A stretch of DNA of 64,000 bases from Heterodontus francisci (lineage: Eukaryota): positions 46,222,430 to 46,286,429 of the forward strand of contig NC_090399.1 in the NCBI RefSeq assembly GCF_036365525.1, in the 5' to 3' direction. Under the pieces are notes generated by a model. It was not told the DNA's origin. It made no database searches and was given only the letters and a program-made list of their open reading frames with translations. How positions within the stretch are numbered: the first letter of the stretch is position 1; every line of letters begins with the position of its first letter. Below are positions 12,449 through 64,000 of the stretch, piece after piece. The translations under genes were made by a program, and so were the position numbers.

Positions 12449-12561
12449 TCACGCAGTGTCACTGTGATGAAATGACACACTCCCCGATTCTTTCATCCAG
12501 TTCACCTGCTGACCTTCATGTGCTGAAGTCCCTGGAGTTCCAGTTGGGACATGGGAGGCCA
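12449..12561 (-). CDS. MHC class I-like gene, cytoplasmic terminal exon (predicted)
   Basis: Strong acceptor TTTATCTCTCTTCCCCAG; in phase 1 reads VASHVPTGTPGTSAHEGQQVNWMKESGSVSFHHSDTA then TGA at 12451-12449. Unique sequence 263 nt after the TM exon; internal donors cannot be excluded. Confidence 0.6.
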
Positions 12562-12824: not shown

Positions 12825-12929
12825 CTCTCTTTTTGTAGATGAAGAAAGCCAGGATAATGAGAATGATGACCAGCACAATCCCGAGCACAATACCGAGAAT
12901 AACAGGGACCTGGGAGTCTGACTGGGGAC
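12825..12929 (-). CDS. MHC class I-like gene, connecting peptide/transmembrane exon
   Basis: Acceptor CTCTCTGTTTCTCACTGACAG, donor G|GTAGGA, 105 nt, phase 1-1; GPQSDSQVPVILGIVLGIVLVIILIILAFFIYKKR gives a hydrophobic helix plus basic stop-transfer. Confidence 0.85.
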
Positions 12930-21846: not shown

Positions 21847-22110
21847 CATAAATCACCACCATTGTCTCCCTCAGTGCACTGTGCTCCACCCGACAGGAAT
21901 ACTCAGCCTGGTCTTCCGGATCAAACTCCGTCCATTTCCGGATCTGGAAGGTGTTGTTGTGATTGGGTAAGATCCCAGAGGATAGGGTCTCATCGATCAA
22001 CACTCCATCTCTCCACAGAGTCACCTCAATGTCTGGAGGGTAAAACCCAGTGATGACACAGGACAGCCGGTTAGAATCACCCAGACGGGTAAAGGATACG
22101 ATGGGGGCGA
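21847..22110 (-). CDS. MHC class I-like gene, alpha3 (C1-set Ig) exon
   Basis: Acceptor TTTCTCTCTCTCTCAG, donor G|GTAAGA, 264 nt, phase 1-1; IAPIVSFTRLGDSNRLSCVITGFYPPDIEVTLWRDGVLIDETLSSGILPNHNNTFQIRKWTEFDPEDQAEYSCRVEHSALRETMVVIY has C..GFYP, LPN..TFQ and YxCxVxH. Confidence 0.95.
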
Positions 22111-22164: not shown

Positions 22165-22885
22165 CACTGACCCTCACTCAGAGAATACCCCACTAACTGA
22201 CACTCAGACCCCCCCCTCACTCACTGACTCTCAGTCTCCCCCTCACTCACCGACTCTCAGTCACCCCCTCACTCACCAACTTTAAGTCTCGCCCTCACTC
22301 ACTGACTCTCAGTCCCCCCTTCTCAGTCACTGACTTTCAGTACCAACCTCACTCACTGACTCTCAGTCCCACCTCACTCACTAACTCTCAGTCCCCCCCT
22401 CACTCACCGACTCTCAGTCCCCCCCTCACTCACTGACTCTCAGTCCCCCCCTCACTCACTGACTCTCAGTCCCCCCCTCACTCACCGACTCTCAGTCCCC
22501 CCTTCACTCACTGACTCTCAGTCCCCCCTTCTCAGTCACTGACTTTCAGTACCAACCTCACTCACTGACTCTCAGTCCCACCTCACTCACTCACCGACTC
22601 TCAGTCCCCCCCTCACTCACCGACTCTCAGTCCCCCCCTCACTCACCAACTCTCAGTCCCCCCCTCACTCATCGACTCTCAGTCCCCCCCTCACTCATCG
22701 ACTGTCAGTCCCCCCCTCACTCACCGACTCTCAGTGCCCCCCTCACTCACCGACTCTCAGTCCCCCCTTCTCACTCATTGACTCTCTGTCGCCCACCTCA
22801 CACACTGACTCTCAGTCCCGTCCTCACTCACTCACACTCAGTACCCCCCTCACTCACTGACTCTCAGTCCCCCCTCACCCTCCGA
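22165..22885. repeat. ~26 bp minisatellite filling the alpha2-alpha3 intron
   Basis: Unit CTCACTCAC(T/C)GACTCTCAGTCCCCCC, period 26 at 22385/22411. Confidence 0.95.
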
Positions 22886-22896: not shown

Positions 22897-23169
22897 TGAG
22901 TGTTAGTATTCTAGCTTTGTTCAGCAGACACAACCTCAGCCACTGGATGCAGATCTCTTTCAGATAGAACTTCCACCTCTGATTGTTTGCTGTGTCCTGA
23001 TTCCAATTGTCCTGGGCAGTGTGTGCCCATGGTGCCTGTGCCACCCACTCCGCCTTATCTGGGTCGAAGCTCATCATGTCTTGGCCATCCCAGCCCAACT
23101 GGAGGAACTCAGTTTTGTTCCCGACATCCTTTAGCTCACAGCCAGTCCTCACCTGGAGCATGTGTATTC
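22897..23169 (-). CDS. MHC class I-like gene, alpha2 exon
   Basis: Acceptor TGTTTGATTGACAG, donor A|GTGAGT, 273 nt, phase 1-1; GIHMLQVRTGCELKDVGNKTEFLQLGWDGQDMMSFDPDKAEWVAQAPWAHTAQDNWNQDTANNQRWKFYLKEICIQWLRLCLLNKARILTL has HxLQxxxGCE, DGxD and YLxxxCxxWL. Confidence 0.95.
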
Positions 23170-23202
23170 CTGTCAATCAAACAGACACAGAGCCAATCAG
23201 AT

Positions 23203-23386
23203 GCATTCCCGAGATCCCGCCCACAATTCCATCATCACTTGAACTCTAAATTCCCCCACCATCGACATCCTGGGGGCTGTCACCACTGACCAGAAACTGA
23301 ACTGCACCAACCACATAAATACTGTGGCCACAACAGCAGGTTGGAGGCTGGGAATTCTGTAGCGAGTAACTCACCTCCCGACTCCC
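23203..23386 (+). mobile_element. L2-like LINE internal fragment
   Basis: GACCAGAAACTGAACTGCACCAACCACATAAATACTGTGGC matches 9121-9160. Confidence 0.75.
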
Positions 23387-23394
23387 TAAAACCT

Positions 23395-23965
23395 TTCATA
23401 GGGACAGACGAACATCAGGAATAGGAGCAGGAGAAGGCCATTTGGCCCATCGAGTCTGCTCCACCAATCAATATGATCACGGCTGATCTTCCACCTCAAT
23501 GCCATCTTCCTGCAGTCTCCCATATCCCTTAATTCTCCAAAAGTCCATAAACCTCTGTCTTGAATATACTCAACAACTGAACATTCACAGTTCTCTGGGG
23601 TAGAGAATTCCAAAGATTCACAGCCCTTTGAATGAATAAATTTCTCCCCATGTCAGTTCCAATGGCCGACCCCTTATTCTGAGACTGTGACCCCGTGTTC
23701 TAGATTCCCCGGCCAGGGGGACATATTTTCTCAGCATCTACCCTGTCAAAGCTCTTAGAATGTTATATGTTTCACTGAGATCACCCTCATTCTTCTAAAC
23801 TCCAGGGAATATAGGCCCAGTCTACTCAATCTCTCCTATGGGACCATCCTCTCATCCCAGGAACCAGTCTAGTGAACCTTCTTTGCAGTCCCTCTAGGGT
23901 AAGTATGTCCCTCCTTTGGTCAGGAGACAAGACTGCACACAGTGCTCCAGGTGTGGACTCATCAG
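23395..23965 (-). mobile_element. CR1 LINE 3' fragment
   Basis: AGGAATAGGAGCAGGAGAAGGCCATT 3'-end type and a decayed CR1 ORF2 C-terminus on the minus strand. Confidence 0.8.
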
Positions 23966-23969
23966 CTTT

Positions 23970-24570
23970 TTAAATTCATTCTTGGGATGTGGGTGTCACT
24001 ACAAAGGCCAGTATTTGTTGCCCATCCCTATTTGCCCTTGGGGAGTTGTTGGTGAGCTGCCTTATTGAACCACTGCAATCCTTGGCTGTAGGTACACCCA
24101 CAGTGCTGTTAGGGAGTGAGCTCCAGGTTTCTGACCCAGCGACAGCGATATATTTCAAAGCCAGGATGATGTGTGACTTGGAAAGGAACTTGAAGGTGCA
24201 GGTGTTCCCATGCATCTGCTGCCCTTGTCCTTCTAGGTGGTCGAGATCGCAGGGTTGAAAGGTGCTGTCGAAGGAGACTTCGTAAGTTACAGCAGTGCAT
24301 CTTGTAGATGGTACACACAGCTGCCACTGTGCGTCAGTGGTGGAGGGAGTGAATGTTTAAGGTTGTGGATGGGGTGCTGATCAAACCGGTTGCTTTATCC
24401 TGGATGATGTTGAGCTTCATGAGTTATTGGAGCTGCTGCACCCATCCAGACAACTGGAGAGTATTCCATCACACTCCTGACTTGTGCCTTGTAGATGGTG
24501 GACAGGCTTTGGGGAGTCAGGAGGTGAGTTACTCAGCACAGAATTCCCAGCCTCTGACCTGCTCTTGTAG
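23970..24570 (-). mobile_element. L2-like LINE 3' fragment
   Basis: Similar to 19166-19760 (AAVCTIYKMHC, AWEHLHLQVP). Confidence 0.85.
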
Positions 24571-24599
24571 TCGGTGGTGGGAATGGTTGCGGATAAGAG

Positions 24600-27500
24600 C
24601 AATTCAAGAGGAATAGGGAGGCAGGGTACAGAATGGCGAGATACGGGGAGGCTGGAATAGAGAGATACGGGGGGAGAATAGAAAGCCATGGTGGGGGGGG
24701 GGGCAGGGAATAGAGAGACATGGGAGGAACAGAGAGACACAGAAGCAATAGAGAGAAATGGGGAGAACAAAGAGACCTGGGGGAAATAAAGAGACACAGG
24801 GGAAACAGAGACACAGGGGCAACACAGAGAGTCACAGGGGAAACAGAGAGAAACAGGGGAAACAAAATAAACACAGGGGAAACAGAGAGACACAGGGTAA
24901 ACAGAGACACAGGGGCAACACAGAGAGTCACAGGGGAAACAGAAAGAAACAGGGGCAACACAGAGAGAAACAGGGGAAACAGAGAGACACAGGGGCAACA
25001 CAGAGAGACACAGGGGAAACAGAGAGAACAGGGGAAACAAAATAAACAGAGGGGAAACAAAATAAACAGAGGGGAAACAGAGAGTCACAGTGTAAACAGT
25101 GAGACACAAGGGAAACAAAATAAACATAGGGGAAACAGTGACAAAGGGGCAACACAGGGTCACAGGGGAAACAGAATGAAACAGGGGAAATAAAATAAAC
25201 ACAAGGGAAACAGAGAGAATCACAGGGGAAACAGAGAGAATCACAGGAAAAACAGAGAGAATCATCGGGGAAACAGAGAGAATCACAGGGGGAACAGAGA
25301 GAATCACATGCGAAACAGAGAGAATCACAGGGGAAACAGAGCGAATCACAGGGAAACAGAGAGACTCAGGGGAAACAGAGAGAATCACATGGGAAACAGA
25401 GAGAATCACAGGGGAAACAGAGAGAATCACAGGGGAAACAGAGAGAATCACAGGGGAAACGGACAGAATCACAGGGGGAACACAGAGAATCACAGTGGAA
25501 ACAGAGAGAATCACAGGGGAAACAGAAGAATCACAGGGGAGACAGAGAGTCACAGGGTAAAGAGAGACACAGGGGAAACACAGAGAGTCAGAGGGGAAAC
25601 AGAGAGAAACAGGGGAAACAAAATAAACACAGGGGAAACTGAGAGTCACAGTGCAAACAGTGAGACACAGGGGAAAAAGAGAGAATCACAGAAGAAACAG
25701 AGAGAATCACAGGGGAAACAAAGAGACACAGGGGAAACAGAGAGAATCACAGGGGAAACAAAGAGACACAGGGGAAACAGAGAGAATCACAAGAGAAACA
25801 GAGAGAACCAGAGGGGAAACAAAGAGACACAGGGGAAACAAAGAGAATCACAGGGGAAACAGAAAGAAACTCATGGGAAACAGAGAGAATCACAGGGGAA
25901 ACAGAGAGAATCACAGGGGAAAGAGAGAGACTCACAGGGAAACAGAGAGACACAGGGGAAACAGAGAGAATCACAGGGGAAACAGAGAGAATCACGTGGG
26001 AAACAGAGAGAATCACAGGGGAAACAGAGAGAATCACATGGGAAACAGAGAGAATCACATGGGAAACAGAGAGAATCACAGGGGAAACAGAGAGAATCAC
26101 AGGGGAAACAGAAGAATCACAGGGGGGACAGAGAGTCACAGGGTAAAGAGAGACACAGGGGAAACACAGAGAGTCAGAGGGGAAACAGAGAGAAACAGGG
26201 GAAACAAAATAAACACAGGGGAAACTGAGAGTCACAGTGCAAACAGTGAGACACAGGGGAAAAAGAGAGAATCACAGAAGAAACAGAGAGAATCACAGGG
26301 GAAACAAAGAGACACAGGGGAAACAGAGAGAATCACAAGAGAAACAGAGAGAACCAGAGGGGAAACAAAGAGACACAGGGGAAACAAAGAGAATCACAGG
26401 GGAAACAGAAAGAAACTCATGGGAAACAGAGAGAATCACAGGGGAAACAGAGAGAATCACAGGGGAAAGAGAGAGAATCACAGGGAAACAGAGAGACACA
26501 GGGGAAACAGAGAGAATCACAGGGGAAACAGAGAGAATCACGTGGGAAACAGAGAGAATCACAGGGGAAACAGAGAGAATCACAGGGAAACAGAGAGAGA
26601 ATCACAGGGAAACAGAGAGACACAGGGGAAACAGAGAGAATCACAGGGGAAACAGAGAGAATCACGTGGGAAACAGAGAGAATCACAGGGGAAACAGAGA
26701 GAATCACGTGGGAAACAGAGAGAATCACATGGGAAACGGAGAGAATCACAGGGGAAACAGAGAGAAACACAGGGGAAAAACGGGGGAAACACAAGGGGTA
26801 CAGAGAGACAAAGGGGAAACAGAGAGAATCACATGGGAAACAGAGAGAATCACATGGGAAACAGAGAGAATCACAGGGGAAACAGAGAGAATCACAGGGG
26901 AAACAGAAGAATCACAGGGGGAACAGAGAGTCACAGGGTAAAGAGAGACACAGGGGAAACACAGAGAGTCAGAGGGGAAACAGAGAGAAACAGGGGAAAC
27001 AAAATAAACACAGGGGAAACTGAGAGTCACAGTGCAAACAGTGAGACACAGGGGAAAAAGAGAGAATCACAGAAGAAACAGAGAGAATCACAGGGGAAAC
27101 AAAGAGACACAGGGGAAACAGAGAGAATCACAAGAGAAACAGAGAGAACCAGAGGGGAAACAAAGAGACACAGGGGAAACAAAGAGAATCACAGGGGAAA
27201 CAGAAAGAAACTCATGGGAAACAGAGAGAATCACAGGGGAAACAGAGAGAATCACAGGGGAAAGAGAGAGAATCACAGGGAAACAGAGAGACACAGGGGA
27301 AACAGAGAGAATCACAGGGGAAACAGAGAGAATCACGTGGGAAACAGAGAGAATCACAGGGGAAACAGAGAGAATCACAGGGAAACAGAGAGAGAATCAC
27401 AGGGAAACAGAGAGACACAGGGGAAACAGAGAGAATCACAGGGGAAACAGAGAGAATCACGTGGGAAACAGAGAGAATCACAGGGGAAACAGAGAGAATC

Positions 27501-30500
27501 ACGTGGGAAACAGAGAGAATCACATGGGAAACAGAGAGAATCACAGGGGAAACAGAGAGAATCACGTGGGAAACAGAGAGAATCACGTGGGAAACAGAGA
27601 GAATCACAGGGGAAACAGAGAGAATCACGTGGGAAACAGAGAGAATCACATGGGAAACAGAGAGAATCACATGGGAAACAGAGAGAATCACAGGGGAAAC
27701 GGACAGAATCACAGGGGAAACAGAGAGAAACACAGGGGAAAAACGGGGGAAACACAAGGGGTACAGAGAGACAAAGGGGAAACAGAGAGTCACCGGGGGA
27801 ACAGTGAGACACAGGGGAAACAGTGAGAATCACAGGGGAAACAGAGAGTCACAGGGGAAACAGAGAGTTGCAGCGGAAACAGAGAGACACAGGGGAAACA
27901 GAATCACAGGGGACACAGAGAGAATCACAGGTGAAACAGAGAGAATCACAGGGGAAACAGACAGTCATAGGGGAAACACAGAGACACAGGGGAAATGGAG
28001 AGACACAGGGGAAACAGACAGTCACACAGGAAACACAGAGACACAGTGGAAACAGAGAGTCACAGCGGAAACAAAGAGACACAGGGGAAACAGAGAGACA
28101 CAGGAGAAACACAGGGGAAACAGAGAGACACAGGGTAAACAGGGAGACACAGGGGAAACAGAGAGTCGCAGGGGAAACAGAGAGACACAGGGGAAACAGA
28201 CAGTTGCAGGGGAAACAGACAGAGGCAGGCGAATTGGAGAGACACAAGCGAACAGAGAGACACAGGCGAAACTGAGAAACACAGGGAAAACAGAGAGACA
28301 CAGGGAAACAGAGAGAATCACAAGGGAAACAAAATAAATACAGGGGAAACAGAGAGACACGGGGAAAGAGAGAAACACAAGGGAAACAGAGAGATACAGC
28401 GGAAACAACGAGGCACAGGGGAAAAAGAGAAAAACAGGGGAAACACAGGGGAAACACAGGGGGTACGGAGAGACACAGGGGAAACAGAGAGACACAGCAG
28501 CAACACAGGGAAACAGAGAGACACACGGTAAACAGAGACACAGGGGCAACACAGAGAGTCACAGGGGAAACAGAAAGAAACAGGGGCAACACAGAGAGAA
28601 ACAGGGGAAACAGAGAGACACAGGGGCAACACAGAGAGACACAGGGGAAACAGAGAGAACAAGGGAAACAAAATAAACAGAGGGGAAACAAAATAAACAG
28701 AGGGGAAACAGAGAGTCACAGTGTAAACAGTGAGACACAAGGGAAACAAAATAAACATAGGGGAAACAGTGACAAAGGGGCAACACAGGGTCACAGGGGA
28801 AACAGAATGAAACAGGGGAAATAAAATAAACACAAGGGAAACAGAGAGAATCACAGGGGAAACAGAGAGAATCACAGGAAAAACAGAGAGAATCATCGGG
28901 GAAACAGAGAGAATCACAGGGGGAACAGAGAGAATCACAGGGGAACAGAGAGAATCACAGGGGAAACAAAGAGACACAGGGGAAACAGAGAGAATCACAG
29001 GGGGAACAGAGAGAATCACATGCGAAACAGAGAGAATCAGAGGGGAAACAGAGCGAATCACAGGGAAACAGAGAGACTCAGGGGAAACAGAGAGAATCAC
29101 AGGGGAAACAGAGAGAATCACAGGGGAAACAGAGAGAATCACAGGGGGAACAGAGAGAATCACATGCGAAACAGAGAGAATCAGAGGGGAAACAGAGCGA
29201 ATCACAGGGAAACAGAGAGACTCAGGGGAAACAGAGAGAATCACAGGGGAAACAGAGAGAATCACATGGGAAACAGAGAGAATCACAGGGGAAACGGACA
29301 GAATCACAGGGGAAACAGAGAGAATCACAGTGGAAACAGAGAGAATCACAGGGGAAACAGAGAGAATCACATGGGAAACAGAGAGAAACACAGGGGAAAC
29401 GGACAGAATCACAGGGGAAACAGAGAGAATCACAGTGGAAACAGAGAGAATCACAGGGGAAACAGAAGAATCACAGGGGAGACAGAGAGTCACAGGGTAA
29501 AGAGAGACACAGGGGAAACACAGAGAGTCAGAGGGGAAACAGAGAGAAACAGGGGAAACAAAATAAACACAGGGGAAACTGAGAGTCACAGTGCAAACAG
29601 TGAGACACAGGGGAAAAAGAGAGAATCACAGAAGAAACAGAGAGAATCACAGGGGAAACAAAGAGACACAGGGGAAACAGAGAGAATCACAAGAGAAACA
29701 GAGAGAACCAGAGGGGAAACAAAGAGACACAGGGGAAACAAAGAGAATCACAGGGGAAACAGAAAGAAACTCATGGGAAACAGAGAGAATCACAGGGGAA
29801 ACAGAGAGAATCACAGGGGAAACAGAGAGAATCACAGGGAAACAGAGAGACACAGGGGAAACAGAGAGAATCACAGGGGAAACAGAGAGAATCACGTGGG
29901 AAACAGAGAGAATCACAGGGGAAACAGAGAGAATCACAGGGAAACAGAGAGACACAGGGGAAACAGAGAGAATCACAGGGGAAACAGAGAGAATCACGTG
30001 GGAAACAGAGAGAATCACAGGGGAAACAGAGAGAATCACAGGGAAACAGAGAGACACAGGGGAAACAGAGAGAATCACAGGGGAAACAGAGAGAATCACA
30101 GGGGAAACAGAGAGAATCACAGGGAAACAGAGAGACACAGGGGAAACAGAGAGAATCACAGGGGAAACAGAGAGAATCACGTGGGAAACAGAGAGAATCA
30201 CAGGGGAAACAGAGAGAATCACATGGGAAACAGAGAGAATCACAGGGGAAACGGACAGAATCACAGGGGAAACAGAGAGAAACACAGGGGAAAAACGGGG
30301 GAAACACAAGGGGTACAGAGAGACAAAGGGGAAACAGAGAGTCACAGGGGAAACAGTGAGACACAGGGGAAACAGTGAGAATCACAGGGGAAACAGAGAG
30401 TCACGGGGAAACAGAGAGTTGCAGCGGAAACAGAGAGACACAGGGGAAACAGAATCACAGGGGACACAGAGAGAATCACAGGTGAAACAGAGAGAATCAC

Positions 30501-33500
30501 AGGGGAAACAGACAGTCATAGGGGAAACACAGAGACACAGGGGAAATGGAGAGACACAGGGGAAACAGACAGTCACACAGGAAACACAGAGACACAGTGG
30601 AAACAGAGAGTCACAGCGGAAACAAAGAGACACAGGGGAAACAGAGAGACACAGGAGAAACACAGGGGAAACAGAGAGACACAGGGTAAACAGGGAGACA
30701 CAGGGGAAACAGAGAGTCGCAGGGGAAACAGAGAGACACAGGGGAAACAGACAGTTGCAGGGGAAACAGACAGAGGCAGGCGAATTGGAGAGACACAAGC
30801 GAACAGAGAGACACAGGCGAAACTGAGAAACACAGGGAAAACAGAGAGACACAGGGAAACAGAGAGAATCACAAGGGAAACAAAATAAATACAGGGGAAA
30901 CAGAGAGACACGGGGAAAGAGAGAAACACAAGGGAAACAGAGAGATACAGCGGAAACAACGAGGCACAGGGGAAAAAGAGAAAAACAGGGGAAACACGGG
31001 GGAAACACAGGGGGTACGGAGAGACACAGGGGAAACAGAGAGACACAGCAGCAACACAGGGAAACAGAGAGACACACGGTAAACAGAGACACAGGGGCAA
31101 CACAGAGAGTCACAGGGGAAACAGAAAGAAACAGGGGCAACACAGAGAGAAACAGGGGAAACAGAGAGACACAGGGGCAACACAGAGAGAACAGGGGAAA
31201 CAAAATAAACAGAGGGGAAACAAAATAAACAGAGGGGAAACAGAGAGTCACAGTGTAAACAGTGAGACACAAGGGAAACAAAATAAACATAGGGGAAACA
31301 GTGACAAAGGGGCAACACAGGGTCACAGGGGAAACAGAATGAAACAGGGGAAATAAAATAAACACAAGGGAAACAGAGAGAATCACAGGGGAAACAGAGA
31401 GAATCACAGGAAAAACAGAGAGAATCATCGGGGAAACAGAGAGAATCACAGGGGGAACAGAGAGAATCACATGCGAAACAGAGAGAATCACAGGGGAAAC
31501 AAAGAGACACAGGGGAAACAGAGAGAATCACAAGAGAAACAGAGAGAACCAGAGGGGAAACAAAGAGACACAGGGGAAACAAAGAGAATCACAGGGGAAA
31601 CAGAAAGAAACTCATGGGAAACAGAGAGAATCACAGGGGAAACAGAGAGAATCACAGGGGAAACAGAGAGAATCACAGGGAGACAGAGAGACACAGGGGA
31701 AACAGAGAGAATTACAGGGGAAACAGAGAGAATCACGTGGGAAACAGAGAGAATCACAGGGAAACAGAGAGAATCACAGGGGAAACAGAGAGAATCACAG
31801 GGGAAACAGAGAGAATCACAGGGAAACAGAGAGACACAGGGGAAACAGAGAGAATCACAGGGGAAACAGAGAGAATCACAGGGGAAACGGACAGAATCAC
31901 ATGGGAAACAGAGAGAATCACAGGGGAAACGGACAGAATCACAGGGGAAACAGAGAGAAACACAGGGGAAAAACGGGGGAAACACAAGGGGTACAGAGAG
32001 ACAAAGGGAAAACAGAGAGTCACAGGGGAAACAGTGAAACACAGGGGAAACAGTGAGAATCACAGGGGAAACAGAGAGTCACAGGGGAAACAGAGAGTTG
32101 CAGCGGAAACAGAGAGACACAGGGGAAACAGAATCACAGGGGACACAGAGAGAATCACAGGTGAAACAGAGAGAATCACAGGGGAAACAGACAGTCATAG
32201 GGGAAACACAGAGACACAGGGGAAATGGAGAGACACAGGGGAAACAGACAGTCACACAGGAAACACAGAGACACAGTGGAAACAGAGAGTCACAGCGGAA
32301 ACAAAGAGACACAGGGGAAACACAGGGGAAACAGAGAGACACAGGGTAAACAGGGAGACACAGGGGAAACAGAGAGTCGCAGGGGAAACAGAGAGACACA
32401 GGGGAAACAGACAGTTGCAGGGGAAATGGAGAGACACAAGCGAACAGAGAGACACAGGCGAAACTGAGAAACACAGGGAAAACAGAGAGACACAGGGAAA
32501 CAGAGAGAATCACAAGGGAAACAAAATAAATACAGGGGAAACAGAGAGACACGGGGAAAGAGAGAAACACAAGGGAAACAGAGAGATACAGCGGAAACAA
32601 CGAGGCACAGGGGAAAAAGAGAGAAACAGGGGAAACACAGGGGAAACACAGGGGGTACGGAGAGACACAGGGGAAACAGAGAGACACAGCAGCAACACAG
32701 GGAAACAGAGAGACACACGGTAAACAGAGACACAGGGGAAACAGTGAGACACAGGGGAAACAGACAGTCACAGGGGAAAAAGACAGACACTTGGGAAACA
32801 GAGAAAAACAGGGGAAACACAGGGGAAACAGAGTCACAGGGGAGAAAGGGAGACACAGGGGAAACAGAGAGATACAGGGGAAAAAGAGGGGAAACAGAGA
32901 GACACAGGGGAAACAAAAAGTCACTGGGGAAACAGAGAGACACAGGGGAAACAGTGAGACACAGGGGAAGCAGAGAGACACAGGGGAAGCAGAGAGACAC
33001 AGGGGAAACACAGAGACACAGGGGAAATGGAGAGACACAGGGGAAACAGACAGTCACACAGGAAACACAGAGACACAGTGGAAACTGAGAGTCACAGCGG
33101 AAACAAAGAGACACAGGGGTAACAGAGAGACACAGGAGAAACACAGGGGAAACAGAGAGACACAGGGTAAACAGGGAGACACAGGGGAAACAGAGAGTCG
33201 CAGGGGAAACAGAGAGACACAGGGGAAACAGACAGTTGCAGGGGAAACAGACAGAGGCAGGCGAATTGGAGAGACACAGGCGAACAGAGAGACACAGGCG
33301 AAACTGAGAAACACAGGGAAAACAGAGAGACACAGGGAAACAGAGAGAATCACAAGGGAAACAAAATAAATACAGGGGAAACAGAGAGACACGGGGAAAG
33401 AGAGAAACACAAGGGAAACAGAGAGATACAGCGGAAACAACGAGGCACAGGGGAAAAAGAGAAAAACAGGGGAAACACAGGGGAAACACAGGGGAAACAC

Positions 33501-51500: not shown

Positions 51501-54500
51501 CACAAGGGAAACACAGAGACACAGGGGAAACTGAAAGTCACTGGGGAAGCAGAGAGACACGGGGGAAGCAGAGACACAGGGGAAGCAGAGAGACACAGGG
51601 GAAGCAGAGAGACACAGGGGAAACAGTGAGAATCACAGGGGAAATAGTGAGAATCACAGGGGAAACAGAGAGTCACAGGGGAAACAGAGAGAATCACAGG
51701 GGATACAGAGAGAATCACAGGTGAAACAGAGAGAATCACAGGTGAAACAGGGAGAATCACAGGGGAAACACAGGGGAAACAGAGAGACACAGGGGAAGCA
51801 GAGAGACACAGGGGAAGCAGAGAGACACAGGGGAAACAGACAGTCACAGGGGAAACACAGAGACACTTGGGAAACAGAGAAAAACAGGAGAATCACAGGG
51901 GAAACAGAGAGACACAGGGGAAACAGAGTGTCACAGGGGAAACAGAGAGACACAGCGGAAACACAGGGAAAACAGAGAGACACAGGGAAACAGAGAGAAT
52001 CACAAGGGAAACAAAATAAATACAGGGGAAACAGAGAGACACGGGGAAAGAGAGAAACACAAGGGAAACAGAGAGATACAGCGGAAACAACGAGGCACGG
52101 GGGAAAAAGAGAAAAACAGGGGAAACACAGGGGAAACACAGGGGGTACGGAGAGACACAGGGGAAACAGAAAGTCACAGGGGAAACAGAGAGATACAGGG
52201 GAAACAGAGAGTCACAGGGGAAACAGAGAGACACAGCAGCAACACAGGGAAACAGAGAGACACAGGGGAATCAGAGAGTCGCAGGGGAAACAGAGAGACA
52301 CAGGGGAAATAGACAGTTGCAGGGGAAACAGACAGAGGCAGGCGAATTGGAGAGACACAGGCGAACAGAGAGACACAGGCGAAACTGAGAGACACAGGTG
52401 AAACAGAGAGACACAGGAGAAACACAGGGGAAACAGAGAGACGCAGGGGAAGCAGAGAGACACAGGGGAAGCAGAGAGACACAGGGGAAACAGACAGTCA
52501 CAGGGGAAACACAGAGACACTTGGGAAACAGAGAAAAACAGGAGAATCACAGGGGAAACAGAGAGACACAGCGGAAACACAGGGAAAACAGAGAGACACA
52601 GGGAAACAGAGAGAATCACAAGGGAAACAAAATAAATACAGGGGAAACAGAAAGTCACAGGGGAAACAGAGAGATACAGGGGAAACAGAGAGTCACAGGG
52701 GAAACAGAGAGACACAGCAGCAACACAGGGAAACAGAGAGACACAGGGAAACAGAGAGACACACGATAAACAGAGACACAGGGGAAACAGTGAGACACAG
52801 GGGAAACAGACAGTCACAGGGGAAAAAGACAGACACTTGGGAAACAGAGGGGAAACAGACAGACACAAGGGAAACAGAGAGACACAAGGGAAACACAGAG
52901 ACACAGGGGAAACAGAAAGTCACTGGGGAAACAGAGAGACACAGGGGAAACAGAGAGACACAGGGGAAACAGAGAGTCACTGGGGAAACAGAGAGACACA
53001 GGCAAAACCGAGAGACACAGGCTAAACCAAGAGACACAGGCTAAACCAAGAGACACAGGCGAAACAGAGAGACACAGGCGAAACAGAGAGAATCACAGGG
53101 GAAACAGAGAGAATCAAAGGGGAAACAGAGAGAGACAAAGGGAAAACAGAGGAACACAGGGGAAAAGAGAGACGCAGGGGAAAGAGAGAAACAGGGGAAA
53201 AAGAGAAACACAGGGGAAACAGATAGTTGCAGAGGAAACAGAGAGACAAAGGGGAAACAGAGAGCCACAGGGGAAGCAGAGAGACAGGGGAAACACAGAG
53301 ACACTTGGGAAACAGAGAAAAACAGGGGAAACACAGGGGAAACACAGAGACACAGGGGAAACAGAGAGTCACAGGGGAAACAGACAGTCACAGAGGATGC
53401 AGAGAGACAGAGGGGAAACGGAGAGACACAGCAGAAACACAGGGGAAACAGACAGACACAGGGATTACAGAGAGAAATAGCGGAAAGACAGAGACACAGG
53501 GGATACAGTGAGAAATAGGGGAAAGAGAGGGACACAGGGGAAAGAGAGAGAAATAGGGGACAGAGAGAGAAATAGGGGAAACAGAGTCACAGGGGAAACA
53601 GAGAGAAATAGCGGAAAGAGAGAGACACAGGGGATACAGTGAGAAATAGGTGAAAGAGAGAGACACAGGGGAAAGAGAGAAAAATAGGGGAAAGAGAGGG
53701 ACACAGGGGATGCAGTGAGAAATAGTGGAAAGATAGAGACACAGGGGAAACAGAGAGAAATAGGGGAAAGAGAGAGACACAGGGGAAAGAGAGAAAAATA
53801 GGGGAAAGAGAGAGACACTGGGGAAAGATAGAGACACAGGGGAAACAGAGAGACATAGGGGAAAGAGAGAGACACAGGGGAAAGAGAGAGACACAGGGGA
53901 AAGAGAGGGACACAAGGGAAAGAGAGAGAAATAGGGGAAAGAGAGAGACACAGGGGAAAGAGAGAGACACAGGGGAAAGAGAAAGTCACTGGGGAAGCAG
54001 AGAGACACAGGCGAAGCAGAGAGACACAGGGGAAACAGTGAGAATCACAGGGGAAACAGAGAGTCACAGGGGAAACAGAGAGAATCACAGGGGATACAGA
54101 GAGAATCACAGGTGAAACAGAGAGAATCACAGGTGAAACAGAGAGAGTCACAGCGGAAACAGACAGTCATAGGGGAAACACAGAGACACAGGGGAAATGG
54201 AGAAACACAGGAGCAACAGAGAGACACAGGGGAAACAGAGAGATACAGGGGAAACAGAGGGGAAACAGAGAGACACAAGGGAAACACAGAGACACAAGGG
54301 AAACACAGAGACACAGGGGAAACTGAAAGTCACTGGGGAAGCAGAGAGACACGGGGGAAGCAGAGACACAGGGGAAGCAGAGAGACACAGGGGAAGCAGA
54401 GAGACACAGGGGAAACAGTGAGAATCACAGGGGAAATAGTGAGAATCACAGGGGAAACAGAGAGTCACAGGGGAAACAGAGAGAATCACAGGGGATACAG

Positions 54501-57500
54501 AGAGAATCACAGGTGAAACAGAGAGAATCACAGGTGAAACAGGGAGAATCACAGGGGAAACACAGGGGAAACAGAGAGACACAGGGGAAGCAGAGAGACA
54601 CAGGGGAAGCAGAGAGACACAGGGGAAACAGACAGTCACAGGGGAAACACAGAGACACTTGGGAAACAGAGAAAAACAGGAGAATCACAGGGGAAACAGA
54701 GAGACACAGGGGAAACAGAGTGTCACAGGGGAAACAGAGAGACACAGCGGAAACACAGGGAAAACAGAGAGACACAGGGAAACAGAGAGAATCACAAGGG
54801 AAACAAAATAAATACAGGGGAAACAGAGAGACACGGGGAAAGAGAGAAACACAAGGGAAACAGAGAGATACAGCGGAAACAACGAGGCACGGGGGAAAAA
54901 GAGAAAAACAGGGGAAACACAGGGGAAACACAGGGGGTACGGAGAGACACAGGGGAAACAGAAAGTCACAGGGGAAACAGAGAGATACAGGGGAAACAGA
55001 GAGTCACAGGGGAAACAGAGAGACACAGCAGCAACACAGGGAAACAGAGAGACACAGGGGAATCAGAGAGTCGCAGGGGAAACAGAGAGACACAGGGGAA
55101 ATAGACAGTTGCAGGGGAAACAGACAGAGGCAGGCGAATTGGAGAGACACAGGCGAACAGAGAGACACAGGCGAAACTGAGAGACACAGGTGAAACAGAG
55201 AGACACAGGAGAAACACAGGGGAAACAGAGAGACGCAGGGGAAGCAGAGAGACACAGGGGAAGCAGAGAGACACAGGGGAAACAGACAGTCACAGGGGAA
55301 ACACAGAGACACTTGGGAAACAGAGAAAAACAGGAGAATCACAGGGGAAACAGAGAGACACAGCGGAAACACAGGGAAAACAGAGAGACACAGGGAAACA
55401 GAGAGAATCACAAGGGAAACAAAATAAATACAGGGGAAACAGAAAGTCACAGGGGAAACAGAGAGATACAGGGGAAACAGAGAGTCACAGGGGAAACAGA
55501 GAGACACAGCAGCAACACAGGGAAACAGAGAGACACAGGGAAACAGAGAGACACACGATAAACAGAGACACAGGGGAAACAGTGAGACACAGGGGAAACA
55601 GACAGTCACAGGGGAAAAAGACAGACACTTGGGAAACAGAGGGGAAACAGACAGACACAAGGGAAACAGAGAGACACAAGGGAAACACAGAGACACAGGG
55701 GAAACAGAAAGTCACTGGGGAAACAGAGAGACACAGGGGAAACAGAGAGACACAGGGGAAACAGAGAGTCACTGGGGAAACAGAGAGACACAGGCAAAAC
55801 CGAGAGACACAGGCTAAACCAAGAGACACAGGCTAAACCAAGAGACACAGGCGAAACAGAGAGACACAGGCGAAACAGAGAGAATCACAGGGGAAACAGA
55901 GAGAATCAAAGGGGAAACAGAGAGAGACAAAGGGAAAACAGAGGAACACAGGGGAAAAGAGAGACGCAGGGGAAAGAGAGAAACAGGGGAAAAAGAGAAA
56001 CACAGGGGAAACAGATAGTTGCAGAGGAAACAGAGAGACAAAGGGGAAACAGAGAGCCACAGGGGAAGCAGAGAGACAGGGGAAACACAGAGACACTTGG
56101 GAAACAGAGAAAAACAGGGGAAACACAGGGGAAACACAGAGACACAGGGGAAACAGAGAGTCACAGGGGAAACAGACAGTCACAGAGGATGCAGAGAGAC
56201 AGAGGGGAAACGGAGAGACACAGCAGAAACACAGGGGAAACAGACAGACACAGGGATTACAGAGAGAAATAGCGGAAAGACAGAGACACAGGGGATACAG
56301 TGAGAAATAGGGGAAAGAGAGGGACACAGGGGAAAGAGAGAGAAATAGGGGACAGAGAGAGAAATAGGGGAAACAGAGTCACAGGGGAAACAGAGAGAAA
56401 TAGCGGAAAGAGAGAGACACAGGGGATACAGTGAGAAATAGGTGAAAGAGAGAGACACAGGGGAAAGAGAGAAAAATAGGGGAAAGAGAGGGACACAGGG
56501 GATGCAGTGAGAAATAGTGGAAAGATAGAGACACAGGGGAAACAGAGAGAAATAGGGGAAAGAGAGAGACACAGGGGAAAGAGAGAAAAATAGGGGAAAG
56601 AGAGGGACATAGTGGAAACAGAGAGAAATTGCGGAAAGATAGAGACACAGGGGAAAGAGAGAGAAATAGGGGAAAGAGAGAGACACAGGGGAAAGATAGA
56701 GACACAGGGGAAACAGAGAGACATAGGGGAAAGAGAGAGACACAGGGGAAAGAGAGAGACACAGGGGAAAGAGAGGGACACAAGGGAAAGAGAGAGAAAT
56801 AGGGGAAAGAGAGAGACACAGGGGAAAGAGAGAGACACAGGGGAAACAGAAAGTCACTGGGGAAGCAGAGAGACACGGGGGAAGCAGAGACACAGGGGAA
56901 GCAGAGAGACACAGGGGAAGCAGAGAGACACAGGGGAAACAGTGAGAATCACAGGGGAAATACTGAGAATCACAGGGGAAACAGAGAGTCACAGGGGAAA
57001 CAGAGAGAATCACAGGGGATACAGAGAGAATCACAGGTGAAACAGAGAGAATCACAGGTGAAACAGGGAGAATCACAGGGGAAACAGACAGTCATAGGGG
57101 AAACACAGAGACACAGGGGAAATGGAGAAACACAGGGGAAACACAGGGGCAACAGAGAGACACAGGGGAAAAACGGGGGAAACACAGGGGGTACAGAGAG
57201 ACAAAGGGGAAACAGAGAGCCACAGGGGAAGCAGAGAGACACAGGGGAAAGAATGAGACACAGGGGAAACAGTGAGAATCACAGGGGAAACAGAGAGTCA
57301 CAGGGGAAACAGAGAGTTGCCGCGGAAACAGAGAGACACAGGGGAAACAGAGAGAATCACAGGGGATACAGAGAGAATCACAGGTGAAACAGAGAGAATC
57401 ACAGGGGAAACAGACAGTCATAGGGGAAACACAGAGACACAGGGGAAATGGAGAAACACAGGGTAAACACAGGGGCAACAGAGAGACACAGGGGAAACAG

Positions 57501-60500
57501 ACAGTCACACAGGAAACACAGAGACACAGTGGAAACAGAGATTCACAGGGGAAACAGGCAGTCACAGTGGTAACAGAGATTCACAGGGGAAACAGAGAGA
57601 CACAGGGGAAACAGAGAGTCACAGCGGAAACAAAGAGACACAGGGGAAACAGAGAGACACAGGAGAAACACAGGGGAAACAGAGAGACACAGGGGCAACA
57701 GAGAGACACAGGGGAAACAGACAGTCACACAGGAAACAGAGAGACACAGTGGAAACAGAGATTCACAGGGGAAACCGGCAGTCACAGTGGAAACAGAGGT
57801 TCACAGGTGAAACAGAGAGACACAGGGGAAACAGAGAGTCGCAGGGGAAACAGAGAGACACAGGGGAAACAGACAGTTCCAGGGAAACAGACAGAGGCAG
57901 GCGAATTGGAGAGACACAGGCGAACAGAGAGACACAGGCGAAACTGAGAGACACAGGTGAAACAGAGAGACACAGGAGAAACACAGGGGAAACAGAGAGA
58001 CACAGGGGAAGCAGAGAGACACAGGGGAAACACAGAGACACTTGGGAAACAGAAAAAACAGGAGAATCACAGGGGAAACAGAGAGACACAGGGGAAACAG
58101 AGCGTCACAGGGGAAACAGAGAGACACAGCGGAAACACAGGGATAACAGAGAGACACAGGGAAACAGAGAGAATCACAAGGGAAACAAAATAAATACAGG
58201 GGAAACAGAGAGACACGGGGAAAGAGAGAAACACAAGGGAAACAGAGAGATACAGCGGAAACAACGAGGCACGGGGGAAAAAGAGAAAAACAGGGGAAAC
58301 ACAGGGGAAACACAGGGGGTACGGAGAGACACAGGGGAAACAGAAAGTCACAGGGGAAACAGAGAGATACGGGGGAAACAGAGAGTCACAGGGGAAACAG
58401 AGAGACACAGCAGCAACACAGGGAAACAGAGAGACACAGGGAAACAGAGAGACACACGATAAACAGAGACACAGGGGAAACAGTGAGACACAGGGGAAAC
58501 AGACAGTCACAGGGGAAACAGAGAGACACAAGGGAAACACAGAGACACAGGGGAAACAGAAAGTCACTGGGGAAACAGAGAGACACAGGGGAAACAGAGA
58601 GACACAAGGGAAACACAGAGACACAGGGGAAACAGAAAGTCACTGGGGAAACAGAAGACACAGGGGAAACAGAGAGACACAGGGGAAACAGAGAGTCACT
58701 GGGGAAACAGAGAGACACAGGGGAAACATAGAGATACAGGGAAACAGAGAGACACAGGGAAACAGAGAGACACAGGGGAAACAGAGAAAAACAGGGGAAA
58801 CAGACAATGCTGGGGAAACAGACAGATACAGGCAAAACAGAGAGACACAGGCGAAACCGAGAGACACAGGCTAAAGCGAGAGACACAGGCTAAACCAAGA
58901 GACACAGGCAAAACCAAGAGACACAGGCTAAACCAAGAGACACAGGCGAAACAGAGAGACACAGGCGAAACAGAGAGAATCACAGGGGAAACAGAGAGAA
59001 TCAAAGGGGAAACAGAGAGAGACAAAGGGAAAACAGAGGAACACAGGGGAAAAGAGAGACGCAGGGGAAAGAGAGAAACAGGGGAAAAAGAGAAACACAG
59101 GGGAAACAGATAGTTGCAGAGGAAACAGAGAGACACAGCGGAAAGAGAGAGAATCACAGGGGAAAGAGAGAGAATCACTGGAAACAGAGAGACACAGGGG
59201 AAACAGAGAGACGGGGAAACACAGAGACACTTGGGAAACAGAGAAAAACAGGGGAAACACAGGGGAAACACAGAGACACAGGGGAAACAGAGAGTCACAG
59301 GGGAAACAGAGAGTCACAGGGGAAACAGACAGTCACAGAGGATGCAGAGAGACAGAGGGGAAACAGAGAGACACAGCAGAAACACAGCGGAAACAGACAG
59401 ACACAGGGATTACAGAGAAAAACAGGGGAAGCAGAGAGTCGCAGGGGAAACAGAGAAACAAAAGGGAAACAAACAGTTTCAGGGGAAACAGACAGAGACA
59501 GGCGAATCGGAGCGACACAGGCGAAACAGAGACACACAGGCCAAACTGAGAGACACAGGGGAAACAGAGAGACACAGGAGAAACACAGGGGAAACAGAGA
59601 GACACAGGGGAAACAGAGAGAAATAGGGGAAAGAGAGAGAAATCGGGGGAACAGAGTCACAGGGGAAACAAAGAGACACAGGGGAAACAGAGAGACACTG
59701 GGGAAAGAGAGAGAAATAGGGGAAACAGACAGACACCGGGGAAACAGAGAGACACAGGGGAAACAGAGAGAAATAGGGGAAAGAGATAGAAATCGGGGGA
59801 ACAGAGTCACAGGGGAAACAGAGAAATAGGGGAAACAGAGAGACACATGGGAAACAGAGAAACACAGGGGAAACAGTGTCACAGGGGAAACAGAAAGAAA
59901 CAGGGGAAACAGAGAGACACAGGGGAAACAAAGAAACACAGGGCAAAGAGAGAGACACAGGGGAAAGGGAGAGATGCAGGGTAAAGAGAGAGACGCAGGG
60001 GAAAGAGAGAGACACAGGGGAAAGAGAGAGACACAGGTGAAACAGAGAGAAATGGGGGAAAGTGAGAGAAATAGGGGAAACAGAGTCACAGTAGAAACTG
60101 AGAGAAATAGGGGACAGAGAGAGACACAGGGGAAAGAGAGAGACGCAGGTGAAAGAGAGAGAAATAAGGGACAGAGAGAGAAATAGGGGAAACAGAGTCA
60201 CAGTGGAAACAGAGAGAAATAGCGGTAAGATAGAGACACAGGAAAAAGAGAGAGAAATAGAGGACAGAGAGAGACACAGGGGAAACAGAGAGAATCACAG
60301 GGGATACAGAGAGAATCACAGGTGAAACAGAGAGAATCACAGGGGAAACAGACAGTCATAGGGGAAACACAGAGACACAGGGGAAATGGAGAAACACAGG
60401 GTAAACACAGGGGCAACAGAGAGACACAGGGGAAACAGACAGTCACACAGGAAACACAGAGACACAGTGGAAACAGAGATTCACAGGGGAAACAGGCAGT

Positions 60501-63500
60501 CACAGTGGTAACAGAGATTCACAGGGGAAACAGAGAGACACAGGGGAAACAGAGAGTCACAGCGGAAACAAAGAGACACAGGGGAAACAGAGAGACACAG
60601 GAGAAACACAGGGGAAACAGAGAGACACAGGGGCAACAGAGAGACACAGGGGAAACAGACAGTCACACAGGAAACAGAGAGACACAGTGGAAACAGAGAT
60701 TCACAGGGGAAACCGGCAGTCACAGTGGAAACAGAGGTTCACAGGTGAAACAGAGAGACACAGGGGAAACAGAGAGTCGCAGGGGAAACAGAGAGACACA
60801 GGGGAAACAGACAGTTCCAGGGAAACAGACAGAGGCAGGCGAATTGGAGAGACACAGGCGAACAGAGAGACACAGGCGAAACTGAGAGACACAGGTGAAA
60901 CAGAGAGACACAGGAGAAACACAGGGGAAACAGAGAGACACAGGGGAAGCAGAGAGACACAGGGGAAACACAGAGACACTTGGGAAACAGAAAAAACAGG
61001 AGAATCACAGGGGAAACAGAGAGACACAGGGGAAACAGAGCGTCACAGGGGAAACAGAGAGACACAGCGGAAACACAGGGATAACAGAGAGACACAGGGA
61101 AACAGAGAGAATCACAAGGGAAACAAAATAAATACAGGGGAAACAGAGAGACACGGGGAAAGAGAGAAACACAAGGGAAACAGAGAGATACAGCGGAAAC
61201 AACGAGGCACGGGGGAAAAAGAGAAAAACAGGGGAAACACAGGGGAAACACAGGGGGTACGGAGAGACACAGGGGAAACAGAAAGTCACAGGGGAAACAG
61301 AGAGATACGGGGGAAACAGAGAGTCACAGGGGAAACAGAGAGACACAGCAGCAACACAGGGAAACAGAGAGACACAGGGAAACAGAGAGACACACGATAA
61401 ACAGAGACACAGGGGAAACAGTGAGACACAGGGGAAACAGACAGTCACAGGGGAAACAGAGAGACACAAGGGAAACACAGAGACACAGGGGAAACAGAAA
61501 GTCACTGGGGAAACAGAGAGACACAGGGGAAACAGAGAGACACAAGGGAAACACAGAGACACAGGGGAAACAGAAAGTCACTGGGGAAACAGAAGACACA
61601 GGGGAAACAGAGAGACACAGGGGAAACAGAGAGTCACTGGGGAAACAGAGAGACACAGGGGAAACATAGAGATACAGGGAAACAGAGAGACACAGGGAAA
61701 CAGAGAGACACAGGGGAAACAGAGAAAAACAGGGGAAACAGACAATGCTGGGGAAACAGACAGATACAGGCAAAACAGAGAGACACAGGCGAAACCGAGA
61801 GACACAGGCTAAAGCGAGAGACACAGGCTAAACCAAGAGACACAGGCAAAACCAAGAGACACAGGCTAAACCAAGAGACACAGGCGAAACAGAGAGACAC
61901 AGGCGAAACAGAGAGAATCACAGGGGAAACAGAGAGAATCAAAGGGGAAACAGAGAGAGACAAAGGGAAAACAGAGGAACACAGGGGAAAAGAGAGACGC
62001 AGGGGAAAGAGAGAAACAGGGGAAAAAGAGAAACACAGGGGAAACAGATAGTTGCAGAGGAAACAGAGAGACACAGCGGAAAGAGAGAGAATCACAGGGG
62101 AAAGAGAGAGAATCACTGGAAACAGAGAGACACAGGGGAAACAGAGAGACAGGGGAAACACAGAGACACTTGGGAAACAGAGAAAAACAGGGGAAACACA
62201 GGGGAAACACAGAGACACAGGGGAAACAGAGAGTCACAGGGGAAACAGAGAGTCACAGGGGAAACAGACAGTCACAGAGGATGCAGAGAGACAGAGGGGA
62301 AACAGAGAGACACAGCAGAAACACAGCGGAAACAGACAGACACAGGGATTACAGAGAAAAACAGGGGAAGCAGAGAGTCGCAGGGGAAACAGAGAAACAA
62401 AAGGGAAACAAACAGTTTCAGGGGAAACAGACAGAGACAGGCGAATCGGAGCGACACAGGCGAAACAGAGACACACAGGCCAAACTGAGAGACACAGGGG
62501 AAACAGAGAGACACAGGAGAAACACAGGGGAAACAGAGAGACACAGGGGAAACAGAGAGAAATAGGGGAAAGAGAGAGAAATCGGGGGAACAGAGTCACA
62601 GGGGAAACAAAGAGACACAGGGGAAACAGAGAGACACTGGGGAAAGAGAGAGAAATAGGGGAAACAGACAGACACCGGGGAAACAGAGAGACACAGGGGA
62701 AACAGAGAGAAATAGGGGAAAGAGATAGAAATCGGGGGAACAGAGTCACAGGGGAAACAGAGAAATAGGGGAAACAGAGAGACACATGGGAAACAGAGAA
62801 ACACAGGGGAAACAGTGTCACAGGGGAAACAGAAAGAAACAGGGGAAACAGAGAGACACAGGGGAAACAAAGAAACACAGGGCAAAGAGAGAGACACAGG
62901 GGAAAGGGAGAGATGCAGGGTAAAGAGAGAGACGCAGGGGAAAGAGAGAGACACAGGGGAAAGAGAGAGACACAGGTGAAACAGAGAGAAATGGGGGAAA
63001 GTGAGAGAAATAGGGGAAACAGAGTCACAGTAGAAACTGAGAGAAATAGGGGACAGAGAGAGACACAGGGGAAAGAGAGAGACGCAGGTGAAAGAGAGAG
63101 AAATAAGGGACAGAGAGAGAAATAGGGGAAACAGAGTCACAGTGGAAACAGAGAGAAATAGCGGTAAGATAGAGACACAGGAAAAAGAGAGAGAAATAGA
63201 GGACAGAGAGAGACACAGGGGAAAGAGAGAGACGCAGGTGAAACAGAGAGAAATAGGGGAAACAGAGTCACAGTGGAAACAGAGAGAAATAGCTGAAAGA
63301 TAGAGACACAGGGGCAAGAGAGAGAAATAGGGGAAAGAGAGAGACACAGGGGAAAGATAGAGACACAGGGGAAACAGAGAGAAATAGGGGAAAGAGAGGG
63401 ACACAGGGGTAAGAGAGAGAAATAGGGGACAGAGAGAGAAATAGGGGAAACAGAGTCACAGGGGAAACAGAGAGAAATAGCGGAAAGAGAGAGACACAGG

Positions 63501-64000
63501 GGATACAGTGAGAAATAGGGGAAACAGAGAGACACAGGGGAAACAGAGAGAAAAATAGGGGAAAGAGAGGGACACAGGGGATGCAGTGAGAAATAGTGGA
63601 AAGATAGAGACACAGGGGAAACAGAGAGAAATAGGGGAAAGAGAGAGACACAGGGGAAAGAGAGAAAAATAGGGGAAAGAGAGGGACACAGTGGAAACAG
63701 AGAGAAATTGCGGAAAGATAGAGACACAGGGGAAAGAGAGAGAAATAGGGGAAAGAGAGAGACACAGGGGAAAGATAGAGACACAGGTGAAACAGAGAGA
63801 CATAGGGGAAAGAGAGAGACACAGGGGAAAGAGAGAGACACAGGGGAAAGAGAGAGACACAGGGGAAAGAGAGAGAAATAGGGTATACAGAGAGTCACAG
63901 GGCAAACAGGGAGAAATAAGGGAAAGAGAGAAACACAGCGGAAAGAGAGATAAATAGCGGAAACGGAGAGTCACAGGGGAAAGAGAGAGAAATAGGGTAA
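24600..64000. repeat. Purine-rich 19-21 bp satellite, >39 kb, with higher-order duplications; runs off the window
   Basis: Units ACAGGGGAAACAGAGAGAC (19 bp), CACAGGGGAAACAGAGAGAAT (21 bp) and ATAGGGGAAAGAGAGAGAA variants throughout; no unique sequence seen. Confidence 0.98.

What the first reader, a model, noticed from the sequence alone, without database searches (positions are those of the whole stretch)
23170..64000. No alpha1 or leader exon within 40 kb upstream: giant satellite intron, truncated gene, or two-domain chain
Seen: everything 5' of the alpha2 acceptor is LINE debris (23.2-24.6 kb) and then continuous satellite. Three inferences are possible. (a) Alpha1 lies beyond an intron of more than 40 kb made almost entirely of satellite. 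(b) The gene is a 5'-truncated duplicate. (c) A leader splices directly to alpha2, which is phase-compatible and would give an alpha2-alpha3-TM chain shaped like a class II beta or W-category beta chain. The TM has a GxxxG motif (GIVLG), which is only weak support for (c).
Basis: partly seen in the sequence, partly recalled or inferred. Interest (0 to 1): 0.7.

Follow-up and report, generated by a model that had tools for sequence, protein, structure and literature searches.

The report
Shark MHC gene, giant satellite intron
The missing first exons of this horn shark immune gene lie 98,000 bases away behind a 94 kb repeat-filled intron and are spliced on normally, so it is a complete, expressed MHC class I gene, likely of a non-classical kind, and not a truncated or two-domain chain.

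Summary
Observation confirmed. Option (a) is right; (b) and (c) are refuted.

In the assembly the alpha1 exon lies at C29:46,343,883-46,344,144 and the leader 8.6 kb further on. Intron 2 is 98,284 bp with no gap, and 93,775 bp of it is one 19-bp minisatellite of about 4,980 copies.

Contigs of 4 of 4 RNA-like runs join this gene's own alpha1 to alpha2 at window 23,169. One 355-nt contig runs leader-alpha1-alpha2 in 2 of 2 runs. None joins leader to alpha2. The assembly's one-base frameshift in alpha1 is missing from RNA and DNA contigs, so it is very probably an assembly error.

The product is a 354-aa three-domain class I heavy chain that keeps 2 of 9 classical peptide anchors. It groups with horn shark non-classical, probably UBA-type, genes. 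The array likely grew in place from a short repeat that neighbouring paralogs carry in the same intron. The other 27 alpha1-alpha2 spacings are 0.1-16 kb. The true array length is untested by long reads.

An ordinary gene with an unusually swollen intron.

The parts
23170..64000 (-). In-window part of intron 2. The whole intron is 98,284 bp (C29:46,245,599-46,343,882), GT-AG, with no assembly gap. Beyond it, outside the window, lie the alpha1 exon (C29:46,343,883-46,344,144; 262 bp in the assembly, 261 bp in reads) and the 49-bp leader exon (C29:46,352,749-46,352,797), both on the minus strand
   Evidence: alpha1-alpha2 junction in 4 of 4 RNA-like runs; leader-alpha1-alpha2 contig and missing extra base
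24712..64000 (.). In-window part of the 19-bp minisatellite array; whole array C29:46,247,141-46,340,915, 93,775 bp, about 4,980 copies, 77% matches between adjacent copies, 83% pyrimidine on the gene's sense strand
   Evidence: TRF; composition
23170..24711 (.). 3' 1.5 kb of intron 2 with LINE-like fragments; 86.6% identical to the same part of paralog D
22897..23169 (-). Alpha2 exon, 273 bp, open frame
   Evidence: Pfam MHC_I E 1e-15 against MHC_II_beta E 0.085; best PDB hit 6LUP, residues 89-172
22191..22878 (.). 26-bp minisatellite in intron 3 (26 copies here, 603 in paralog A)
21847..22110 (-). Alpha3 (Ig C1) exon, 264 bp
   Evidence: alpha2-alpha3 junction in 1 of 4 runs
12825..12929 (-). 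Connecting peptide and transmembrane exon, 105 bp
   Evidence: 98% identical to paralog C; not tested with reads
12449..12561 (-). Cytoplasmic exon to the stop codon (37 aa)
   Evidence: matches P0001/P0003; not tested with reads
11089..11094 (-). Candidate poly(A) signal AATAAA, 1.35 kb after the stop
   Evidence: motif only

Best explanation
This is a complete, transcribed three-domain MHC class I heavy-chain gene of the horn shark whose alpha1 exon is spliced to alpha2 across a 98 kb intron, and the intron is long because a short 19-bp repeat, present in the same intron of the neighbouring paralogs, likely expanded in place by repeated unequal exchange. SHOWN: exon order and canonical splice sites; leader-alpha1-alpha2 and alpha2-alpha3 junctions in contigs of RNA-like runs; an open alpha1 in reads; short copies of the repeat in paralogs A, C and D. 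INFERRED: (1) the array is tolerated because its sense strand offers few splice signals (1 GTRAG, no AATAAA and 2.6 AG per kb over 94 kb), so no cryptic exon is defined; (2) growth came by nested block duplication of about 1-5 kb, roughly 150-fold over the 0.6 kb repeat at the same place in sister gene D; (3) the 354-aa chain binds beta2-microglobulin and reaches the surface as a non-classical class I molecule that does not hold peptides by their ends in the classical way; (4) the expansion is neutral, costing only extra transcription time.
For: Alpha1 and leader found on the same strand, upstream, in order. The only N run in 464 kb lies in intron 1. The loose end at 23,170 in 4 of 4 runs matches this gene's alpha1 end with 0 mismatches in 30, against 3 for paralog C and 4 for D; contigs stop at the acceptor with no intron cover. 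One 355-nt contig holds 49 nt of leader, all of alpha1 and 43 nt of alpha2 in 2 of 2 RNA-like runs. The assembly's extra base is absent in X1, X8 and both covering X2 contigs; two more one-base differences lie within 360 bp. Period 19-22 repeats of 0.17-0.74 kb sit in intron 2 of paralogs A, C and D, and D's abuts the segment matching B's last 1.5 kb. A 41-nt two-unit pattern has 43 matches, all inside this intron. Unit make-up drifts along the array; 645 distinct units. Alpha2 Cys pair, Q96 and the GxD motif, and alpha3 Pro are kept.
Against: All laid runs are assembled contigs of one sample, and 'RNA' is the tool's guess, although exon joins at GT-AG borders that DNA runs lack point to RNA. 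No read spans the array, so its length rests on the assembly. 12.5% of its 1-kb words are exact repeats, up to 2.5 kb long, which fits recent duplication or assembly inflation. The lack of splice signals is not required: paralog A's 15.7 kb intron 3 array has 52 GTRAG and 177 AG per kb. The low AG count is partly base composition (240 seen, 523 in shuffles). TM and cytoplasmic junctions were not tested. No protein record for this gene turned up.
Confidence: 0.9

Rival explanations
1. The gene is real and spliced, but the array length is inflated by the assembly; the true intron is much shorter than 98 kb.
For: Exact internal repeats up to 2,488 bp; three one-base errors near alpha1 and a gap 3.8 kb upstream of it suggest thin coverage at this contig end.
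Against: Removing every later exact copy of 1 kb or more leaves 78.9 kb, and of 500 bp or more leaves 64.5 kb. Unit types change gradually along the array. No gap inside it.
Confidence: 0.06
2. The assembled haplotype carries a real frameshifted null allele, and the reads show the other, intact allele.
For: The assembly has 262 bp in alpha1, which stops the frame soon after; contigs can drop variants.
Against: Both covering DNA contigs of X2 lack the base at full depth (12.9 of 12.9), as do both RNA-like runs. X4 does not cover the place. Two nearby intronic one-base differences behave the same way in X2 and X4.
Confidence: 0.02
3. One reading: the leader splices directly to alpha2 and gives a two-domain chain like class II beta or W-category beta.
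For: Leader donor and alpha2 acceptor are both phase 1, so skipping alpha1 keeps the frame.
Against: 0 of 4 runs show a leader sequence at the alpha2 acceptor; contigs of X6 and X7 pass the alpha1-alpha2 junction unbroken. The gene has an alpha1 exon and nests among three-domain class I genes. Contigs drop rare forms, so a minor isoform is not excluded.
Confidence: 0.015
4. One reading: a 5'-truncated duplicate.
For: Nothing beyond the absence of 5' exons inside the window.
Against: Its own leader and alpha1 exist and are transcribed with alpha2.
Confidence: 0.005

Closest known systems
Shark non-classical class I, UBA family (multicopy, derived from UAA; PMC12562908 and PMC10751288, passages read); horn shark O19480/AAC60348.1
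   Same: Same leader, exon plan and closely similar alpha3; multicopy cluster; sits in one clade with O19480 and multigene copies of other sharks (support 95/98)
   Different: Genes A, B and C form their own long-branched group (100/100, branch 0.57) with strongly changed alpha1 and alpha2; intron 2 is 98 kb against 0.1-16 kb
Nurse shark class I, PDB 6LUP (classical type)
   Same: Best solved-structure match for alpha2 (E 1.5e-20) and alpha3 (E 1.3e-25)
   Different: 7 of 9 peptide-end anchor positions are non-classical in this gene (anchor list and HLA-A2 numbering recalled)
Satellite-filled giant introns of Drosophila Y genes kl-3 and kl-5 (PMC6508621 listing; PMC11207136 abstract)
   Same: A tandem repeat fills most of an intron of an expressed gene
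   Different: About 0.1 Mb rather than megabases; a 19-bp locus-specific minisatellite in a vertebrate immune gene; no special expression programme shown
Long intron 2 of trout and carp-family classical class I (>10 kb, used for alpha1/alpha2 recombination; PMC6523485, passages read)
   Same: Same intron, enlarged
   Different: About ten times longer and satellite-made; both flanks of the array are closest to paralog D, so no crossover inside it is evident
W-category beta chain WB (PMC8713811, parts 1-2 of 6 and passages read)
   Same: Class I-type residues in the domains homologous to alpha2 and alpha3
   Different: WB has two extracellular domains and a paired WA gene; this gene has three domains

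Membership tests
MHC class I heavy chain | Leader, alpha1, alpha2, alpha3, TM and cytoplasmic exons in one gene | tested here: met
MHC class I heavy chain | Alpha1 spliced to alpha2 in the transcript | tested here: met
   4 of 4 RNA-like runs; 2 of 2; contigs of one sample
MHC class I heavy chain | Beta2-microglobulin contact residues (alpha2 Q6, G35, D37; alpha3 P57 in the numbering of PMC8713811) | tested here: met
   read from the alignment; alpha2 A32 is Gly and alpha3 G61 is Asn here
MHC class I heavy chain | Binds beta2-microglobulin and reaches the cell surface | not testable with these tools
   needs expression
Classical class Ia (UAA) | Conserved peptide-end anchors Y7, Y59, R84, F/Y123, T143, K146, W147, Y159, Y171 | tested here: not met
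   only W147 and Y159 kept, 2 of 9, read against 6LUP (the anchor list is recalled)
Classical class Ia (UAA) | High allelic polymorphism | not tested
   one sample only
Shark UBA non-classical family | Multicopy genes closely related to UAA | tested here: met
   four-gene cluster; clade with O19480 and other shark copies
Shark UBA non-classical family | Groups with named UBA references to the exclusion of UCA, UDA, UEA, UFA, UGA | tested here: inconclusive
   no sequence in the tree carries a lineage name; that O19480 is a Bartl 1997 clone is recalled, and only shows that paper cited for UBA
Shark UBA non-classical family | Cluster flanked by c4 and rxrb (PMC10751288) | tested here: inconclusive
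   PF07677 gave 4 matches, none on C29; exon-wise search is weak; rxrb not searched
W-category beta chain (WB) | Two extracellular domains (class II architecture) | tested here: not met
   alpha1 present and spliced in
W-category beta chain (WB) | Paired WA gene nearby | not tested
   no WA query was on hand; neighbours found in 464 kb are class I paralogs
Class II beta chain | Beta1-type domain and invariant W61 in the Ig domain (PMC8713811) | tested here: not met
   MHC_II_beta E 0.085 against MHC_I 1e-15; Asn at that position

The most novel reading that the evidence does not exclude
A young, length-variable 94 kb minisatellite fills intron 2 of an expressed shark class I gene and acts as a heritable dial: array length sets transcript level or lets a minor leader-to-alpha2 skipped form appear, giving a two-domain class II-shaped chain from a class I gene.
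Probability: 0.08. Interest if true: 0.6.

Novelty: new member of a known kind. Interest (0 to 1): 0.22.

Why it matters
Modest. It closes the question: no new MHC architecture. It adds an intact, expressed non-classical shark class I gene that the assembly makes look broken, through a 98 kb intron and a probable one-base error, so gene counts from this assembly may miss it. It is also a clean natural comparison: four sister genes with the same intronic repeat at 0.2, 0.6, 0.7 and 94 kb, which allows a direct test of what a giant satellite intron costs in vertebrate transcription and splicing.

Tried and rejected
Two-domain chain and truncated duplicate: rejected. Frameshifted pseudogene: first suggested, then rejected.

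Alpha1/alpha2 shuffling through the long intron: B's alpha1 is nearest D (82.4%), alpha2 nearest C (88.6%), alpha3 nearest A (95.8%). Both flanks of the array are D-like, so a crossover in the array is not supported. Conversion of the alpha2 exon or decay of D would explain the pattern.

A rule that intronic arrays must lack splice signals: rejected by paralog A's intron 3.

Searches that led nowhere: PF00969 in the genome, no match and no control rang; PF07677 for c4 synteny, none on C29; protein search with the alpha1 piece, 6 candidates and none significant; earlier findings nearby, none. No run is on record as RNA; the RNA label is the tool's guess. The UEA paper PMC8454915 is not held. 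No fold or complex prediction was run.

Full report
1. Observation. The window holds the 3' part of an MHC class I gene on the minus strand: alpha2 at 22,897-23,169, alpha3 at 21,847-22,110, TM at 12,825-12,929 and a cytoplasmic exon at 12,449-12,561. Alpha2 scores MHC_I at E 1e-15 and MHC_II_beta at E 0.085. The best solved structure for both domains is shark class I 6LUP. Upstream lie 1.5 kb of LINE-like debris and then a 19-bp array from 24,712 to the window end.

2. Where the missing exons are. The window is C29:46,222,430-46,286,429 of a 6.0 Gb genome. Protein hits on a contig of the same length are named Heterodontus francisci. I took 100 kb to the left and 300 kb to the right. tblastn with two paralog proteins finds four class I genes in the 464 kb: A and B on minus, C and D on plus; B is the gene in question. 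B's alpha1 is at C29:46,343,883-46,344,144 and its leader at 46,352,749-46,352,797, both with canonical splice sites. Intron 2 is 98,284 bp, against 6,941, 6,993 and 14,583 bp in A, C and D. The only N run in the region (200 N) is in intron 1. Of 29 alpha1 exons (27, plus B and D), 28 pair with an alpha2: 27 at 0.1-16 kb, and B at 98 kb. One has no partner, and 9 of 37 alpha2 matches had no alpha1 found.

3. Is it spliced? One search listed 17 runs; I laid 6. On the alpha2 exon, 4 of 4 RNA-like runs give contigs that stop at the acceptor and go on with the end of B's alpha1: 0 mismatches in 30 nt, against 3 for C and 4 for D. X1 also shows the alpha2-alpha3 join. A second loose end in 2 of 4 runs does not occur in the region and reads as paralog C's own alpha1-alpha2 junction (compare). 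None shows the leader at the alpha2 acceptor. On the alpha1 exon, X1 and X8 each have one 355-nt contig with 49 nt of B's leader, the whole exon and 43 nt of alpha2. The DNA contigs of X2 run through the intron instead. All these runs are contigs of one sample, and the RNA label is the tool's guess; joins at GT-AG borders without intron cover support it.

4. The frameshift. The assembly's alpha1 is 262 bp, one more than the paralogs', and goes out of frame after about 13 codons. That base is missing from the X1 and X8 contigs and from both covering X2 contigs; X4 does not cover it. Two further one-base differences within 360 bp are shared by X2 and X4. An assembly error near a contig end is the simplest reading. 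The chain is then 354 aa, the same length as paralog C.

5. The array. It is 93,775 bp, period 19, about 4,980 copies, 95% of the intron. Splitting at G runs gives 4,208 units of 645 kinds, and their mix drifts along the array. Exact repeats recur at 0.9-12.5 kb spacing, the longest 2,488 bp. Dropping later exact copies of 1 kb or more leaves 78.9 kb; of 500 bp or more, 64.5 kb. So even heavy assembly inflation leaves a giant intron, but no read was tested across it. A two-unit pattern matches 43 times, all within this intron (the tool warns that counts are lower bounds). Paralogs carry related period 19-22 repeats of 174 bp (A), 741 bp (C) and 596 bp (D) in intron 2, and D's lies directly next to the segment that is 86.6% identical to B's last 1.5 kb. 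Local expansion from that seed is inferred. On the sense strand the array is 83% pyrimidine and 4.6% A, with 240 AG (2.6 per kb; 47-71 per kb in five ordinary introns), 1 GTRAG and no AATAAA. This may explain why it is skipped cleanly. Against making a rule of it, paralog A's intron 3 array is full of such signals, and base shuffles give 523 AG and 4 GTRAG, so composition accounts for most of the scarcity.

6. What the protein is. A tree of B plus 40 of the 80 proteins then held (isoforms, short models and most teleost hits left out) puts A, B and C together (100/100) inside a clade with horn shark O19480 and multicopy genes of other sharks (95/98), apart from 6LUP. Read against 6LUP, B keeps W147 and Y159 of the nine peptide-end anchors (list recalled). 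It keeps the alpha2 disulphide and most beta2-microglobulin contacts named in PMC8713811. It is therefore non-classical and probably of the UBA family, which PMC12562908 describes as expanded and derived from UAA. No named lineage references were in the tree, so that label is tentative. W-category beta chains have two extracellular domains and a WA partner (PMC8713811); the first feature fails here. GxxxG occurs in three-domain relatives as well.

7. Literature seen. PMC10751288: passages and section 9. PMC8713811: parts 1-2 of 6 and passages. PMC6523485 and PMC12562908: passages. PMC11207136: abstract and outline. PMC6508621: search listing only. PMC8454915: not held. No supplements were read; those of PMC10751288 and PMC8713811 could settle the lineage name. 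The listings of six searches showed no report of a satellite-filled intron in a shark class I gene, but most subscription papers are not covered.

8. Verdict. Option (a) holds. The gene is a complete, expressed, non-classical class I gene with a locally expanded minisatellite intron. Giant repeat-filled introns and long class I intron 2 are both known; the size here is six times the next largest among the class I genes that could be paired in this genome. New member of a known kind; interest 0.22.

Noticed in passing
G000:C29:46,537,871-46,562,986 (paralog D, + strand): Alpha2 exon is 239 bp, 34 bp shorter than in the paralogs, cut at its 5' end and out of frame; no alpha3 match in the next 23 kb. 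Probable pseudogene, or further assembly error.
   Followed up: partly
G000:C29:46,124,458-46,140,169 (paralog A intron 3): The 26-bp repeat that has 23-26 copies in B and C has 603 copies (15.6 kb) here, and is rich in donor-like GTRAG words. A second, independent intronic expansion in the same cluster.
   Followed up: partly
G000:C29:57.4-62.8 Mb, C815, C1655, C1290: At least nine class I alpha2 exons with near-equal scores, and about 7 kb alpha1-alpha2 spacing where alpha1 was found. Horn shark P0050/P0051 group with Squalus Q8HWH7 in the tree; whether they come from these loci was not checked. Many copies would be unusual if these are classical-type genes.
   Followed up: no
window 16,671-19,089: 35-bp minisatellite in intron 4, split by a SINE-like insert at about 18,235-18,600; short remnant at 21,585-21,666.
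   Followed up: no
window 14,600-15,800 (+): Degraded retroelement-like frames with a CCHC zinc knuckle and a protease-like DTG motif inside intron 4 (recognised by eye).
   Followed up: no
RefSeq accessions: Paralog A is XP_067865827.1 and C is XP_067865829.1/830.1. The number between them may be a model of this gene; not seen in any call.
   Followed up: no
G000:C29:54,529,976-54,530,290: Alpha1-like match with a stop and no alpha2 found within 3.6 Mb on its strand.
   Followed up: no
window 3-874: 19/38-bp G+T-rich tandem array, about 46 copies, downstream of the gene.
   Followed up: no
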